A stretch of DNA of 40,192 nt, taken from the UHGV virus genome UHGV-0071970; one strand, given 5' to 3'. This stretch comes from a virus. Under the pieces are notes generated by a model. The model worked only from the letters and a program-made list of their open reading frames with translations, was not told the origin of the DNA and ran no database searches. Positions 3,875 to 9,192 of this stretch are shown piece by piece. Made by a program: the position numbers and the translations under genes. Every line of letters begins with the position of its first letter. Position 1 is the first letter of the stretch.

Positions 3875-3980
3875 CCTGAAGCCGAAAGCAGGCGCGGAAT
3901 AACACCAGAAAACACACGAGCAATTAATTAAGGCATTCATGCCTTCGGGTTCCCTTTGTCTTTTTTTCAGGAGTCAACAA

Positions 3981-4211
3981 ATGAGAACAGCCGAATCACC
4001 CGGCAGAGAAATAACCGCCAGACCAGCTAACCATCATGCGCATATCAGCATGGCCGCAAGAAAAGCCGAGCGTGCACATATCTGCGAATTACTGCGCGAG
4101 CTGACTGAGACAGCGAAAGAGACACACACCTGTCCACAGGAAACCTGCGCAGCCATTGAACGACTGATTGCAATACTCGCCAACCCAGACGAACTGAAGG
4201 GGTGCGCATAA
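3981..4211 (+). CDS. Hypothetical protein (76 aa)
   Basis: ATG with SD CAGGAG upstream; ends where the exonuclease gene starts. Confidence 0.4.
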   Translation: MRTAESPGREITARPANHHAHISMAARKAERAHICELLRELTETAKETHTCPQETCAAIERLIAILANPDELKGCA

Positions 4212-4792
4212 TGAACCATCTCATGATTGACACCGAAACACTGGGTAACGGACCGGACGCAGCCATATTCGCGATTGGGGCGGTGTTTTTCGACCCGTTC
4301 ACCGGAAAGCTGGGCAAGCAGTTTGAGAAATTCATCGACCCGGTGGATTCAGAACGCAACGGCGGAACCGTCAATGCAGCCACCGCTGTATGGTGGGCCG
4401 GACAATCCGTGGAGGCCAGATCCTGCCTGCGCAACGCAGATGGAACAGAGCTGGCAGCAGTGACCGAATTTCTGGCGTTCATTTCACGCAATATGCATGA
4501 CGAAAGCCCGGGCAATTCACTGAACATATGGTGTAAGGGCGCATCCTTCGATTTCCCGATCCTGAAATCCGCCATAACACGCACAGCCGGAGAAAAAAGC
4601 ATCCCCTGGTGCTACTGGAACGAGCGCTGTATGCGCCCGCTTATCGCCATGGCTGAATCAACTGGATGGAAAATGCCAGGCAGATCAGGCAAAGAGACCA
4701 TTGCTCACACCGCGCTGGGCGACGCCGTTTACCAGGCAAAGGTCGTGTCAGAAATCTGGCAGCGCTTCACAACACCATTCCTGAACATATGA
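4211..4792 (+). CDS. DEDD-family 3'-5' exonuclease (DnaQ/epsilon-like)
   Basis: Exo motifs visible: MIDTETLG (Exo I, D-x-E), GASFDFPIL (Exo II), HTALGDAV (Exo III, H-x4-D). Confidence 0.75.
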   Translation: MNHLMIDTETLGNGPDAAIFAIGAVFFDPFTGKLGKQFEKFIDPVDSERNGGTVNAATAVWWAGQSVEARSCLRNADGTELAAVTEFLAFISRNMHDESPGNSLNIWCKGASFDFPILKSAITRTAGEKSIPWCYWNERCMRPLIAMAESTGWKMPGRSGKETIAHTALGDAVYQAKVVSEIWQRFTTPFLNI

Positions 4793-4830
4793 GGTGAAGC
4801 CATGGTCGCCATCCTGAATGTGTGTTGCTG

Positions 4831-4840
4831 CCCCCCCCCC
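4831..4840. repeat. Homopolymeric C(10) tract
   Basis: Exactly ten consecutive C read directly in the sequence, in the spacer upstream of dam. Confidence 0.95.
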
Positions 4841-5027
4841 TGAACGTGGAAAGAAAAGCCCGCGCATCGCTGCATTTATTCCGCGACGGCGTGCGGAATT
4901 TTTCACGCATAAAACCCCACGACTACCTGGTAATAAGAATCGGTTTTCGCTGGCGATTGCTGAGCAAAAACAACGGGGCGTCATGGGATTTATTAACGCA
5001 CGAAACCTATAACAAAGAGGCCGCGTT

Positions 5028-5816
5028 ATGAGCAAAGAACTGTTATCCGGCACGCCGCTTAAATGGGTGGGCGGAAAAAGTCGCATCATGAACACACTGA
5101 AGGCGCATCTGCCAGAAGCAGACTGCCTGGTTGAGCCGTTTGTGGGTGGCGCATCGGTATTCATGAACACCAGTTACAAGCGTTACATCCTGGGTGATTC
5201 CAATGGTGCGCTGATTAATTTCTACCGGCAAGCCAGGGACAACACCGACAGCCTGATCGACGAGGCGAAAACCCTGTTCCTGAACCACAACAACAGGGGT
5301 GACTATCTCATCATTCGCGAAACCTTTAACGCAGAGAATCATGCCTTCCTGAACAGTAGAACGGGAATAAGCGACCGCCGTGAACTGCGACTGGCCGCCA
5401 TGTTTTTGTACCTGAACCGACACAGCTTTAACGGTTTGTTCCGCGTGAACGGAAAAGGCGATTTTAACGTGCCTTTCGGCTGCTACCGCAAGCCCTACTT
5501 CCCTGAGCGGGAAATCCGCGCATTTGCAGACAAGGCAAACAGCACCCGAACGCTGCTTATCCACGCAGATTTTAAGGATACGCTGAACTCTGCCAGTCAC
5601 CTGTTCGGCATGGGCAACACGCTTTGCGTGTACTGCGATCCCCCTTACCTGCGATTCAGTGGCCGGGACAATTTCACCGCCTACGGAAAACCATTCGATG
5701 AAGACGAGCACGTTCGTCTGAGGGCAGCGCTTGACCGCCTTTCACAGGAAACGGGCGGCATGACCAGCATCACCATCTCCAATTCCGACACACCGGAAAC
5801 CAGACGCATTTATTAG
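5028..5816 (+). CDS. dam: DNA N6-adenine methyltransferase (Dam family)
   Basis: KWVGGK, FVGGAS (AdoMet motif I) and catalytic DPPY motif in the translation. Confidence 0.85.
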   Translation: MSKELLSGTPLKWVGGKSRIMNTLKAHLPEADCLVEPFVGGASVFMNTSYKRYILGDSNGALINFYRQARDNTDSLIDEAKTLFLNHNNRGDYLIIRETFNAENHAFLNSRTGISDRRELRLAAMFLYLNRHSFNGLFRVNGKGDFNVPFGCYRKPYFPEREIRAFADKANSTRTLLIHADFKDTLNSASHLFGMGNTLCVYCDPPYLRFSGRDNFTAYGKPFDEDEHVRLRAALDRLSQETGGMTSITISNSDTPETRRIY

Positions 5817-5825
5817 GGTTACCGG

Positions 5826-6008
5826 ATGAACGCCATCCAGGCACCACGAAGCGTTGGCGCAAGAACCCGCGAACCCGCACCGGAGGTTATCGCCACCCTG
5901 AAACAGTGCGACGCATGCGGTCGCCATGGCGGTGGCTACTGCCCGGACTGCGGACCGGTAACGGGAGATGCAACTTACAGCGCGATGTTAATCACCGCCA
6001 GTACGTAA
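5826..6008 (+). CDS. Small Cys4 zinc-ribbon-like protein (60 aa)
   Basis: CDACG...CPDCG pair of CxxC motifs; weak ribosome-binding site. Confidence 0.35.
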   Translation: MNAIQAPRSVGARTREPAPEVIATLKQCDACGRHGGGYCPDCGPVTGDATYSAMLITAST

Positions 6009-7273: not shown

Positions 7274-7450
7274 CAGAAACACCCCGCGTATGCAGACAAT
7301 CACCAGTTGCCAGGTGATATTAATTCGCAACATTCTAACCACATCAGCACGCAACACAAAAACCGCTTGCCAGCGCTCGTCGTGTCGGGTTACATTTCCG
7401 CTGCACCTCATAAAACGGGTGCCGGGATTTCCACCCCGCTGACAAACGAA

Positions 7451-7477
7451 GCGCACAGCCGCGCCAGCGGTTTTTTT
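7451..7477 (+). terminator. Terminator-like hairpin followed by T7 (copy 1 of 2; second copy at 8280-8306)
   Basis: GCGCACAGCCGCGCCAGCGG followed by TTTTTTT; short GC stem, so weak. Confidence 0.35.
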
Positions 7478-7517
7478 GTGCGTACTGTATCGCCACGTCT
7501 TTTTCGCGTCAGAATTA

Positions 7518-7595
7518 TGGCGGGGCGTACAGGGCCGACTTCGGTCGGGCCGGTTTCTTCGTTTGCCGGTTGTGGAAACCCTGTACGTCTCGCCA
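7518..7595 (+). other. Long imperfect hairpin with internal UUCG-capped stem-loop, RNA-like (copy 1)
   Basis: TGGCGGGGCGTACAGGG pairs with CCCTGTACGTCTCGCCA (17 bp, including two G-T pairs that would only pair as G-U in plus-strand RNA); inner GGCCGAC-TTCG-GTCGGGCC stem-loop. Confidence 0.4.
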
Positions 7596-7656
7596 CCCTG
7601 AGTTTTCCACCTCTGGTTGGTGAGTTTTCAAAATTCACAAACGAAGAGGCCACACC

Positions 7657-7878
7657 ATGGCAAACCGCAAGCAACAGCGCGCCCGCGCTGAGCGTCTTCA
7701 CATCCGCAGCGAAATCAACCGCAGACTTTTCCGCGCAACACGCGTCGCACAAATCATGCATATCAACATGCTGCATGAGCGCACGCACGCGCTGTCAAAC
7801 CGTTACTGCGCTGCTGTCTTCAGCTATCTCGCCGAAGATCTGGCAGAACTGCAAAGCCTCATCAACCAGCACCGATAA
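7657..7878 (+). CDS. Small basic protein (73 aa), copy 1
   Basis: MANRKQQRARAERLHIRSEINRRLF...; SD AAGAGG 7 nt upstream. A longer antisense ORF (7408..7788) also exists, so coding strand is not certain. Confidence 0.45.
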   Translation: MANRKQQRARAERLHIRSEINRRLFRATRVAQIMHINMLHERTHALSNRYCAAVFSYLAEDLAELQSLINQHR

Positions 7879-7946
7879 ACCACATCCGGAAGCTATCCCA
7901 CACCTGCACGCGGGAGGCTTCCGCACGTCTGTTACCGGAGGTTCTC

Positions 7947-8117
7947 ATGAAGAGCGTTAAGGGACTTTCAGATATTCAGGACTTCTTTAACTGGATGTGG
8001 GCGGTGGATCCCCTGCTGGCTTCCCGCCTGAACAACTGGCACGACTATTACCGCCGCGCCTGTAAACAGGCTGCCCGCAGCGTCACCACATACGGGGCTT
8101 TCTCCTTCACCGTTGAC
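7947..8117 (+). pseudogene. Duplicated 5' fragment (about 57 codons) of the 138-aa gene at 8776..9192
   Basis: Same N-terminus MKSVKGLSDIQDFFNWMW...; the frame then runs out of the unit into repeat copy 2, giving the artefactual 280-aa track ORF 7947..8789. Confidence 0.5.
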
Positions 8118-8346
8118 TATGCAGACAATCACCAGTTGCCAGGTGATATTAATTCGCAACATTCTAACCACATCAGCACGCAACACAAAAACCGCTTGCC
8201 AGCGCTCGTCGTGTCGGGTTACATTTCCGCTGCACCTCATAAAACGGGTGCCGGGATTTCCACCCCGCTGACAAACGAAGCGCACAGCCGCGCCAGCGGT
8301 TTTTTTGTGCGTACTGTATCGCCACGTCTTTTTCGCGTCAGAATTA

Positions 8347-8424
8347 TGGCGGGGCGTACAGGGCCGACTTCGGTCGGGCCGGTTTCTTCGTTTGCCGGTT
8401 GTGGAAACCCTGTACGTCTCGCCA
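8347..8424 (+). other. Second copy of the RNA-like hairpin element
   Basis: Identical sequence at +829 bp. Confidence 0.4.
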
Positions 8425-8485
8425 CCCTGAGTTTTCCACCTCTGGTTGGTGAGTTTTCAAAATTCACAAACGAAGAGGCCACACC

Positions 8486-8707
8486 ATGGCAAACCGCAAG
8501 CAACAGCGCGCCCGCGCTGAGCGTCTTCACATCCGCAGCGAAATCAACCGCAGACTTTTCCGCGCAACACGCGTCGCACAAATCATGCATATCAACATGC
8601 TGCATGAGCGCACGCACGCGCTGTCAAACCGTTACTGCGCTGCTGTCTTCAGCTATCTCGCCGAAGATCTGGCAGAACTGCAAAGCCTCATCAACCAGCA
8701 CCGATAA
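8486..8707 (+). CDS. Small basic protein (73 aa), copy 2, identical
   Basis: Identical duplicate inside repeat copy 2. Confidence 0.45.
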   Translation: MANRKQQRARAERLHIRSEINRRLFRATRVAQIMHINMLHERTHALSNRYCAAVFSYLAEDLAELQSLINQHR

Positions 8708-8775
8708 ACCACATCCGGAAGCTATCCCACACCTGCACGCGGGAGGCTTCCGCACGTCTGTTACCGGAGGTTCTC

Positions 8776-9192
8776 ATGAAGAGCGTTAAGGGACTTTCAG
8801 ATATTCAGGACTTCTTTAACTGGATGTGGGCGGTGGATCCCCTGCTGGCTTCCCGCCTGAACAACTGGCACGACTATTACCGCCGCGCCTGTAAACAGGC
8901 TGCCCGCAGCGTCACCACATACGGGGATTTCTCCTTCACCGTGGACGGTCGTTACCGCGTGGACGTGAAAGGTGATGGTGATGGACTGGGTTTATTTCAC
9001 ATCAACGGCACCGACAGTACCGCCATCAGCTGGTCGTCATCAGAGATGGCGCTGATTCTGGAAATGACAACCCACAGCGTGGCCGTGAAAGGTATATACA
9101 CCGCAGAAGGTTTTATCGGCGAATACCAGCGCCTTCTCGTGCTGTACCGCGCGGCGTTTCAGGTGGCAACTGCCGGGGAGTGCGACGCATGA
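8776..9192 (+). CDS. Hypothetical protein (138 aa) immediately upstream of gpA
   Basis: Its stop overlaps the gpA ATG (ATGA at 9189-9192). Confidence 0.5.
   Translation: MKSVKGLSDIQDFFNWMWAVDPLLASRLNNWHDYYRRACKQAARSVTTYGDFSFTVDGRYRVDVKGDGDGLGLFHINGTDSTAISWSSSEMALILEMTTHSVAVKGIYTAEGFIGEYQRLLVLYRAAFQVATAGECDA

What the first reader, a model, noticed from the sequence alone, without database searches (positions are those of the whole stretch)
4793..5031. Poly-C(10) tract sets the reading frame of a leader ORF translationally coupled to dam: possible phase-variable control of the phage methyltransferase
An ATG at 4802 with a good Shine-Dalgarno (GAGGTGA, 4791-4797) reads MVAILNVCCCPPP and hits TGA immediately after the C10 tract (4841-4843). 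With 11 C (or 8 C) the same ATG would be in frame with an ORF of about 76 codons whose stop overlaps the dam start (ATGA at 5028-5031). Tract length therefore switches translation of a leader peptide coupled to dam ON or OFF. Homopolymeric C/G tracts of 9 or more are classic slipped-strand phase-variation switches and are rare in enterobacterial-type sequence. Variable Dam expression from a prophage would change host methylation patterns. A homopolymer sequencing error is the alternative explanation.
Basis: partly seen in the sequence, partly recalled or inferred. Interest (0 to 1): 0.7.

Follow-up and report, generated by a model that had tools for sequence, protein, structure and literature searches.

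The report
Slippery poly-C run in phage gene
A run of ten C's sits near the start of a small, conserved ParE-like gene in a P2-type E. coli prophage. Its length really does vary (5 to 12 C) among otherwise near-identical prophages, and this copy is a frameshifted variant; nothing shows that it controls the neighbouring Dam methylase gene.

Summary
C10 lies at 4831-4840, a Shine-Dalgarno-served ATG at 4802, a TGA directly after the tract, and a downstream frame whose stop overlaps the dam ATG.

The "leader ORF" is a conserved 75-aa phage protein (Pfam ParE_like PF24732, PHROG 1525) in the early operon of a P2/186-like prophage. It is under purifying selection (pN/pS 0.32).

The normal in-frame tract is C8, not C11. 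Public sequences carry C5 to C12: C8 on at least 1160 contigs, C7 on 102, C9 on 38, C11 on 9, C10 on 2. Prophages differing by 0-1 SNP per 1.5 kb carry C7, C8 and C9, so length changes recur. A second assembly shares the window's C10, which argues against a one-off sequencing error.

The best reading is a replication-slippage hot spot in the 5' coding region of the ParE-like gene, with the window holding a heritable +2 frameshift allele.

Control of dam is not supported:
- dam has its own GAGG ribosome-binding site, and there is no unusual RNA structure around it.
- Relatives place another ORF, or a different gene, after the ParE-like gene.
- dam in this window is already truncated by a nonsense codon (Q263*).

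Whether switching is fast and adaptive (true phase variation) remains untested.

The parts
4202..4792 (+). 3'-5' exonuclease gene (Rv2179c-like / DEDDh); its stop TGA at 4790-4792 overlaps the Shine-Dalgarno sequence of the next gene
   Evidence: Pfam PF16473, 173.6 bits; annotated as 3'-5' exonuclease in RefSeq relatives
4791..4797 (+). Shine-Dalgarno sequence GAGGTGA serving ATG4802
   Evidence: Direct reading; identical in 29 of the 30 relatives compared, the exception being L011 with a T insertion
4802..5031 (+). ParE_like-domain gene, frameshifted in this window. With C8 it encodes 75 aa. Here ATG4802 reads 13 codons to TGA 4841-4843, and the domain frame continues from 4840 to the TGA at 5029-5031.
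   Evidence: Pfam PF24732, 63.1 bits against a cutoff of 24.4, residues 14-71; PHROG 1525, residues 4-73 of a 75-position profile; 75-aa homologs across Enterobacterales; pN/pS 0.32 against about 1.2 in the shifted frames
4831..4840 (+). C10 homopolymer, spanning codons 10-13 of the gene; a hypermutable slippage tract. The wild-type length is C8.
4846..4848 (+). GTG in the ParE frame, 2 nt after the premature TGA. It is in frame at every tract length and is a possible re-initiation start (inference only). GTG4822 and TTG4825 are in the ParE frame for C7, C10 and C13; ATG4818 is in frame for C6, C9 and C12. None of these has a Shine-Dalgarno sequence.
   Evidence: gene callers use these starts in out-of-frame alleles
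5015..5020 (+). dam's own Shine-Dalgarno sequence AAGAGG; the GAGG ends 7 nt before ATG5028
   Evidence: Direct reading; no unusually stable local RNA structure
5028..5816 (+). Dam-family DNA adenine methyltransferase gene, truncated to 262 aa by TAG at 5814-5816 (CAG in relatives, which encode 326 aa)
   Evidence: TIGR00571 at 210.7 bits and PF02086 at 172.5 bits; C to T at 5814 relative to L001; unique among the 30 comparison loci, shared by assembly L036
5826..6008 (+). Orphaned 3' part of dam (CxxC...CxxC C-terminus), left out of the protein by the nonsense codon
   Evidence: the full gene in relatives spans the equivalent of 5028-6008

Best explanation
The C tract is a replication-slippage hot spot at codons 10-13 of a real, conserved early gene of a P2/186-like prophage. 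The gene encodes a 75-aa ParE_like-domain protein and lies between a 3'-5' exonuclease gene and the phage dam gene.

The functional, ancestral length is C8. Slipped-strand mispairing repeatedly produces C5 to C12 alleles.

The window carries a heritable C10 (+2) allele. Ribosomes starting at the only Shine-Dalgarno-served start (ATG4802) stop after 13 codons, so the ParE-like protein is lost, or made at most weakly from starts that lack a Shine-Dalgarno sequence.

Shown here: the anatomy, the gene's identity, purifying selection on its frame, length polymorphism, recurrence of changes, and inheritance of C10.

Inferred: the slippage mechanism, and that C10 is a loss-of-function or hypomorphic allele.

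The tract is primarily a property of the ParE-like gene. Any effect on dam (loss of coupling, or polarity across 184 untranslated nt) would be secondary and is unproven.
For: Gene identity:
- Pfam ParE_like at 63 bits and PHROG 1525 over the full length.
- 75-aa homologs in Klebsiella, Enterobacter, Citrobacter, Pantoea and Salmonella, with a conserved N-terminal segment.
- Conserved synteny in the early operon.
- pN/pS of 0.32 in this frame, against 1.15 and 1.27 in the shifted frames.

Frame logic.

Polymorphism:
- C7, C8, C9 and C10 in an alignment that is 99% identical elsewhere.
- 20 loci from the viral and metagenome collections: C7 x3, C8 x14, C9 x3.
- Exact-product counts by contig: C5 5, C6 3, C7 102, C8 at least 1160, C9 38, C10 2, C11 9, C12 1.

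Recurrence:
- L003 (C9), L014 (C7) and L025 (C8) differ by 0-1 SNP over 1.5 kb. The window (C10) is 1 SNP from L001 and L010 (both C8).
- At least 5 independent changes against 31 segregating sites in 13 close sequences.

Alleles are recent or reversible: the ParE frame downstream of the tract is intact in all 31 sequences.

Not a read error:
- It is the only indel against the nearest relative in 6.5 kb of clean alignment.
- C10 is shared by the separate assembly GCA_052539155.1.
Against: - No within-population or rate data are available.
- Some public length calls may still be platform errors; sequencing platforms could not be checked.
- If the true length in the window's lineage were 11, systematically undercalled, the allele would be in frame.
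- Loss of function in C10 is inferred. Alternative starts, including GTG4846 2 nt after the stop, could give some product.
- The tract has stayed uninterrupted in two sub-lineages that differ at 6-9% of flanking positions, and a distant homolog has independently acquired a C8 run. A purely accidental hot spot does not predict this.
Confidence: 0.6

Rival explanations
1. The tract is a true contingency locus. It is maintained by selection so that the ParE-like early gene switches ON (C5, C8, C11) and OFF at high frequency and reversibly, giving the phage or lysogen population a bet-hedging mix of states.
For: - The tract sits in the 5' coding region, the classical position for such switches.
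- Length changes are recurrent and homoplastic.
- The downstream frame is never degraded in OFF alleles.
- The pure C run is retained in two sub-lineages, with only one interrupted allele (CCCCACCC, L030).
- In-frame three-step alleles (C5 and C11, 14 contigs) outnumber out-of-frame two-step alleles (C6 and C10, 5 contigs).
- An independent in-frame C8 run lies at the 5' end of a distant homolog in Lelliottia.
Against: - C8 dominates: at least 88% of contigs.
- Sets of similarly named isolates from one source share one length: G1/2, G6/7 and G8; SW071611, SW071619 and SW07163.
- C10 is stably shared by two assemblies.
- The tract is absent from homologs in other genera.
- The inferred rate is about 250 times the per-site substitution rate. 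Taken with a typical E. coli base-substitution rate (my own knowledge), that falls well below classical phase-variation frequencies.
- Contig counts are not phylogenetically independent.
- No phenotype is known.
Confidence: 0.2
2. Tract length gates Dam expression, because dam translation is coupled to (or polar on) translation of the upstream ORF, which would make a phage-borne phase-variable methyltransferase.
For: - ATGA stop/start overlap at 5028-5031.
- In C7, C10 and C13 alleles the ribosome from ATG4802 stops 184 nt before dam. In C6, C9 and C12 it stops 15 nt before; in C5, C8 and C11 the stop overlaps the dam start.
- No promoter-like site on the + strand between the genes.
- Weak hint: both sequences with a disrupted dam (the window and L011) have non-C8 tracts. 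My Fisher estimate is p of about 0.07-0.1, which is not significant.
Against: - dam has its own GAGG 7 nt upstream, and the local RNA folds no better than shuffles (z = +0.68).
- The overlap is generic to this tightly packed operon. The exonuclease/ParE-like and ParE-like/next-gene junctions also overlap in relatives.
- Klebsiella relatives insert a 64-aa ORF before dam. Other relatives pair the gene with a non-Dam protein.
- dam in this window is truncated at codon 263 regardless of the tract.
- The operon is the repressor-controlled early operon, and E. coli hosts normally have their own Dam. Both points are inference from established P2/186 biology.
Confidence: 0.07
3. The C10 call in the window is a homopolymer sequencing or assembly error, and the true sequence is C8 (or C11).
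For: - Long G/C homopolymers are error-prone on several platforms (general knowledge).
- NCTC9112 (C9) is, from memory, from a PacBio-era project.
- The window's two 829-bp repeat copies are nearly identical, whereas those of L036 differ at 43 sites. This hints at a different assembly method, perhaps with some collapse.
Against: - No other indel against the nearest relative in 6.5 kb of clean alignment.
- The same C10 occurs in the separate assembly GCA_052539155.1, which also shares the dam TAG.
- Length variants are also present in SPAdes-named metagenome contigs and in many draft assemblies.
Confidence: 0.06
4. This is a recoding site. Ribosomal frameshifting on CCC-C quadruplets, or RNA-polymerase slippage on the C run, restores the frame in a fraction of products, so out-of-frame alleles still make the ParE-like protein.
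For: - CCC-C motifs are known +1 frameshift-prone sites (my own knowledge, not tested here).
- Out-of-frame alleles keep an intact downstream frame.
Against: - C8, the commonest allele, needs no recoding.
- C10 needs a -1 or +2 shift, not the +1 shift favoured at CCC-C.
- No stimulatory structure was looked for or found.
- There is no direct evidence.
Confidence: 0.03

Closest known systems
Homopolymer frameshift switches inside coding regions, e.g. the run of C's in Bordetella pertussis bvgS, and contingency loci of Neisseria, Haemophilus and Campylobacter (own knowledge; surveys PMC1891110 and PMC5084427 were listed but not read)
   Same: A G/C mononucleotide run near the 5' end of an ORF. 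Gains or losses of one or more bases by slippage put the gene in or out of frame, and length differs among closely related genomes.
   Different: The host is E. coli, where such switches are rare, and the gene belongs to a temperate phage early operon. Switching frequency and reversibility within a clone are unmeasured. The population is about 90% in frame, and the tract is short (C8).
Phasevarions: phase-variable Type III mod or Type I hsd methyltransferases (review PMC13076061)
   Same: A repeat tract lies physically next to a DNA methyltransferase gene, so variable methylation is conceivable.
   Different: The repeat is not in the methyltransferase gene. The enzyme is an orphan Dam-family (D12 class) methylase, not part of a Type I or III R-M system. 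It has its own ribosome-binding site. No regulon is known.
ParE/RelE-superfamily toxins of type II toxin-antitoxin systems
   Same: Sequence membership in Pfam PF24732 'ParE-like toxin domain'. The weak structural model has a helix followed by four strands.
   Different: The protein is only 75 aa. No antitoxin-like neighbour is present; its neighbours are an exonuclease and Dam. The fold was not confirmed, and toxicity is unknown.
Translational coupling through overlapping stop/start codons (ATGA) in phage and bacterial operons
   Same: The ParE-like stop overlaps the dam ATG.
   Different: The downstream gene has a good Shine-Dalgarno sequence of its own, and no occluding structure was found. 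Dependence on upstream translation, the defining feature of obligatory coupling, is not indicated.

Membership tests
Slipped-strand (simple-sequence-repeat) phase-variable / contingency locus | A repeat tract within an ORF or promoter whose length determines expression | tested here: met
   The C run occupies codons 10-13. Lengths 5, 8 and 11 are in frame with ATG4802; other lengths are not.
Slipped-strand (simple-sequence-repeat) phase-variable / contingency locus | Tract-length polymorphism among closely related strains, arising recurrently | tested here: met
   C5 to C12 observed. Haplotypes 0-1 SNP apart carry C7, C8 and C9. At least 5 independent changes in 13 close sequences.
Slipped-strand (simple-sequence-repeat) phase-variable / contingency locus | High-frequency (about 1e-5 per generation or more), reversible switching within a clonal population | not testable with these tools
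   This needs raw reads or fluctuation assays. Indirect data are mixed: the tract changes about 250 times faster than an ordinary site, but similarly named isolate sets and two C10 assemblies share one length.
Slipped-strand (simple-sequence-repeat) phase-variable / contingency locus | ON and OFF states have different phenotypes | not testable with these tools
   The function of the ParE-like protein is unknown.
Phasevarion (phase-variable DNA methyltransferase regulon) | The repeat lies in, or directly gates, the methyltransferase (mod, hsdS or hsdM) gene | tested here: not met
   The tract is in the upstream gene, 188 nt before dam. dam has its own GAGG, and no occluding structure was found.
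Phasevarion (phase-variable DNA methyltransferase regulon) | The methyltransferase belongs to a Type I or Type III R-M system | tested here: not met
   Dam family, D12 class. The best PADLOC match is an orphan methyltransferase model.
ParE/RelE toxin of a type II toxin-antitoxin pair | Sequence match to a ParE/RelE-type family model | tested here: met
   PF24732 ParE_like at 63.1 bits against a cutoff of 24.4. No NCBIfam or PADLOC match.
ParE/RelE toxin of a type II toxin-antitoxin pair | RelE/ParE fold | tested here: inconclusive
   The AlphaFold model has pLDDT 66. Foldseek against PDB gave no hit with E of 0.001 or better, and a profile search against PDB sequences gave no hit.
ParE/RelE toxin of a type II toxin-antitoxin pair | An adjacent cognate antitoxin gene | tested here: not met
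   Its neighbours are an Rv2179c-like exonuclease and Dam, or a 64-aa ORF with no Pfam hit in Klebsiella.
Obligatory translational coupling | Stop/start overlap, plus a downstream start that lacks an accessible ribosome-binding site of its own | tested here: not met
   The ATGA overlap is present, but GAGG lies 7 nt before the dam ATG and local folding has z = +0.68.

The most novel reading that the evidence does not exclude
A temperate P2-like phage of E. coli carries a genuine contingency switch. Slippage in the C tract stochastically turns a ParE-like early gene on and off and, through lost coupling or polarity, modulates Dam output. The result would be heritable but reversible heterogeneity among lysogens or phage progeny in induction outcome, anti-restriction capacity or host toxicity.

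The independent C8 run in a Lelliottia homolog would then reflect convergent evolution of the same device.
Probability: 0.12. Interest if true: 0.6.

Novelty: new member of a known kind. Interest (0 to 1): 0.35.

Why it matters
If the tract switches at appreciable frequency, it would be a rare example of repeat-mediated phase variation in E. coli, and in a P2-like phage gene. It would also give a handle on the unknown function of a widespread ParE-like early protein.

There is a practical consequence for annotation. The tract explains why pipelines give this gene five or more different lengths and start codons (46 to 76 aa), and why it is sometimes missed. Tract length should be checked before calling it a pseudogene.

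The specific idea of a phase-variable phage Dam is not supported by anything found here.

Tried and rejected
- Megablast of 4600-5250 against sequenced phage isolates gave no match, so the segment is known only from prophages.
- Exact-pattern scans of the one-genome-per-species collection gave no hits for either tract.
- NCBIfam and PADLOC gave nothing for the small protein.
- A profile search against PDB sequences gave no hit.
- The AlphaFold model (pLDDT 66) with Foldseek against PDB gave no significant match, so the ParE/RelE fold could not be verified independently.
- RNA folding around the dam ribosome-binding site showed no unusual structure, so I dropped the idea that it is occluded.
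- The promoter/terminator scan found nothing relevant on the + strand between the exonuclease gene and dam.
- Literature searches for the locus, for PF24732 and for phage-borne phase-variable Dam found no precedent. PMC6286511 looked promising but concerns host mannose-pathway genes.
- The Lelliottia C8 tract occurs in a single genome, so its polymorphism could not be assessed.
- An association between out-of-frame tracts and a disrupted dam rests on 2 cases and is not significant.

Full report
**1. Observation**

- GAGGTGA lies at 4791-4797 and overlaps the TGA (4790-4792) that ends a 3'-5' exonuclease ORF (4202-4792).
- ATG at 4802 reads MVAILNVCCCPPP and stops at TGA 4841-4843, directly after a run of ten C (4831-4840).
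- The frame of ORF 4822-5031 ends in ATGA at 5028-5031, overlapping the dam start.

A C run of 10 or more is expected 0.024 times in the window under a first-order Markov (dinucleotide) model. It is the only G or C run longer than 7 in 40 kb.

**2. What the ORF is**

It is not an anonymous leader. With C8 the ATG4802 ORF encodes 75 aa.
- It matches Pfam PF24732 "ParE-like toxin domain" at 63.1 bits (cutoff 24.4), residues 14-71.
- It matches PHROG 1525 (unknown function) over residues 4-73 of a 75-position profile.
- RefSeq annotates it as "ParE family toxin-like protein".
- Homologs, nearly all exactly 75 aa, occur in Klebsiella, Enterobacter, Citrobacter, Pantoea and Salmonella. Their N-terminal segment is conserved (MHPRLSVVCSAPL...), so ATG4802 is the real start and the tract is coding, at codons 10-13.
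- Within the E. coli clade the frame has pN/pS 0.32, against 1.15 and 1.27 in the two shifted frames and 0.23 for the flanking exonuclease and dam genes.

The context is the rightward early operon of a P2/186-like prophage: integrase, HTH repressor, Cox, DUF4761, DUF4754, exonuclease, ParE_like, Dam, DUF4406, derepression protein, gpA.

Independent confirmation of a ParE/RelE fold failed. The AlphaFold model has pLDDT 66, and there was no significant Foldseek or PDB-sequence hit. No antitoxin-like neighbour is present.

**3. The frame logic has three states, not two**

| Tract length | Product from ATG4802 | Position of stop relative to dam ATG |
|---|---|---|
| C5, C8, C11 | full ParE-like protein | overlaps it (ATGA) |
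| C6, C9, C12 | about 69-aa out-of-frame peptide | ends 15 nt upstream |
| C7, C10, C13 | 12-14-aa peptide | ends 184 nt upstream |

In each out-of-frame state some start without a Shine-Dalgarno sequence is in the ParE frame. These are ATG4818 for C6, C9 and C12; GTG4822 and TTG4825 for C7, C10 and C13; and GTG4846 for all lengths, 2 nt after the premature TGA. Gene callers use these starts, which explains annotated products of 46 to 76 aa. Whether ribosomes use them is unknown.

**4. Tract length in relatives**

The window is nearly identical to prophages in E. coli chromosomes. Against strain G1/2, over the 6.5 kb that align cleanly, the only indel is the two extra C.

Tract lengths:
- An alignment that is 99% identical elsewhere shows C7, C8, C9 and C10.
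- 20 loci found by an exact flank pattern in the viral and metagenome collections give C7 x3, C8 x14 and C9 x3. The metagenome contigs carry SPAdes-style names, suggesting short-read assemblies.
- A second E. coli sub-lineage (TTGCCG before the run) also shows C7, C8 and C9, plus one interrupted allele, CCCCACCC.

Exact look-ups of the predicted products in the 15-billion-protein collection found every allele tried from C5 to C12. Numbers are contigs carrying each product, summed over the two backbones:

| C5 | C6 | C7 | C8 | C9 | C10 | C11 | C12 |
|---|---|---|---|---|---|---|---|

At most about 11% of copies are therefore out of frame. Contractions outnumber expansions. The in-frame three-step alleles (C5 and C11: 14 contigs) outnumber the out-of-frame two-step alleles (C6 and C10: 5 contigs). 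These contigs are not independent samples.

**5. Recurrence**

Length does not follow the flanking haplotype.
- L003 (C9), L014 (C7) and L025 (C8) differ by 0-1 SNP in 1.5 kb.
- The window (C10) is 1 SNP from L001 and L010 (both C8).
- L002 (C7) is 2 SNPs from L023 (C8), and L026 (C7) is 1 SNP from L024 (C8).

Among 13 close sequences there are at least 5 independent tract changes against 31 segregating sites in 1549 nt. The tract therefore changes roughly 250 times faster than an ordinary site. This is a lower bound if switching is reversible.

The ParE frame downstream of the tract is intact in all 31 sequences whatever the tract length, so out-of-frame alleles are recent or reversible. On the other hand, similarly named isolate sets share one length, so switching is not fast enough to randomise close relatives.

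**6. Is the window's C10 an error?**

Probably not. A separate E. coli draft assembly (GCA_052539155.1, locus L036) has the same C10. It differs from the window at 43 positions in 10 kb, 41 of them inside the duplicated segment.

I could not check sequencing platforms. A shared systematic miscall, for example a true C11, therefore cannot be fully excluded.

**7. Does the tract control dam?**

Nothing found supports this.
- dam has AAGAGG at 5015-5020, with the GAGG ending 7 nt before the ATG.
- The RNA from 4960 to 5070 folds no better than shuffled sequence (z = +0.68).
- Stop/start overlaps are the rule throughout this operon.
- In Klebsiella a 64-aa ORF sits between the ParE-like gene and dam.
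- In Lelliottia and Enterobacter relatives the gene overlaps a CxxC protein of at least 500 aa instead of dam.
- In the window, and in L036, dam is itself truncated: C to T at 5814 turns CAG into TAG, giving 262 of 326 aa. This is unique among the 30 comparison loci.
- The operon is the one that the prophage repressor silences in P2 and 186 (established knowledge), and E. coli has its own Dam. An effect on lysogen methylation is therefore doubtful; this is inference.

Polarity across the 184 untranslated nt in C7 and C10 alleles remains possible but untested.

**8. Comparison with known systems**

The anatomy matches coding-region homopolymer switches, such as the C run in Bordetella bvgS and the contingency loci of Neisseria, Haemophilus and Campylobacter. 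It meets two of their defining features: the tract sets expression, and length is recurrently polymorphic among close relatives. The decisive features, high-frequency reversible switching within a clone and a phenotype, cannot be tested here.

It fails the definition of a phasevarion (review PMC13076061). The repeat is not in the methyltransferase gene, and the enzyme is an orphan Dam-family methylase.

The tract is absent from homologs in other genera (GCA CCG CTG in Klebsiella), so it is a recent, lineage-specific feature. One distant homolog, in Lelliottia sp. WB101, has independently acquired an in-frame C8 run at codons 4-7. No literature precedent for this locus was found.

**9. Verdict**

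It is not supported as a dam switch.

The best reading (0.6) is a mutational hot spot in a functional ParE-like early gene, with the window carrying a heritable +2 frameshift allele in a prophage lineage that has also lost full-length Dam.

Rivals:
- adaptive phase variation of the ParE-like gene, 0.2
- control of dam, 0.07
- sequencing error, 0.06
- recoding, 0.03

Novelty: new member of a known kind. Interest: 0.35.

Noticed in passing
window 5814-5816 (dam 5028-5816; orphaned 3' part 5826-6008): The phage dam gene carries a premature TAG (CAG in relatives) that truncates Dam at 262 of 326 aa. It removes the end of the MTase domain and a CxxC...CxxC tail. The mutation is shared with assembly GCA_052539155.1 and is absent from the 30 other relatives compared.
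   Followed up: yes
window 7289-8117 and 8118-8946: An 829-bp tandem direct duplication with only 2 mismatches. It contains a 126-aa ORF on the minus strand and the 'derepression protein' gene. Several relatives (L001, L005, L012, L013, L014, L023) have one copy. L036 has two copies that differ at 43 sites, which suggests gene conversion or assembly collapse in the window.
   Followed up: partly
window 3961-3967: A T7 run just upstream of the Shine-Dalgarno sequence (CAGGAG) of ORF 3981-4211 (PHROG 22206) is T6, T7 or T8 among relatives. It is a second length-variable homopolymer in the same operon, this one non-coding.
   Followed up: no
L050 1471-1704 (Lelliottia sp. WB101 prophage; IMGVR_UViG_2832991980_000005): A distant homolog of the ParE-like protein (55% identity) has its own in-frame C8 run at codons 4-7 (ACC CCC CCC ACG). 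Its siblings L049 and L051 have none. It was found in only one genome, so polymorphism could not be assessed.
   Followed up: partly
L011 (IMGVR_UViG_2778261354_000013), equivalent of window 4793 and 5028-5166: This relative has C9, a T insertion that disrupts the Shine-Dalgarno sequence (GAGTGTGA), and a dam ORF of only 117 aa where homology to the window ends. Together with the window, both sequences with a disrupted dam carry non-C8 tracts. The association is weak and not significant.
   Followed up: partly
L031-L034 3225-3419; L049-L051 about 1701 onward: The gene after the ParE-like gene varies. In Klebsiella it is a 64-aa ORF with no Pfam hit, followed by dam. In Enterobacter and Lelliottia relatives it is a CxxC protein of at least 500 aa. 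The ATGA-type overlap with the next gene is kept in each case examined.
   Followed up: partly
protein cluster of P0038/P0048: The 90%-identity cluster that holds the ParE-like proteins has a 193-aa 3'-5' exonuclease as its representative and includes many exonuclease sequences. Some database entries (P0023, P0036) are read-through or fused exonuclease/ParE-like products. The cause, whether fusion proteins or a clustering artefact, was not examined.
   Followed up: no
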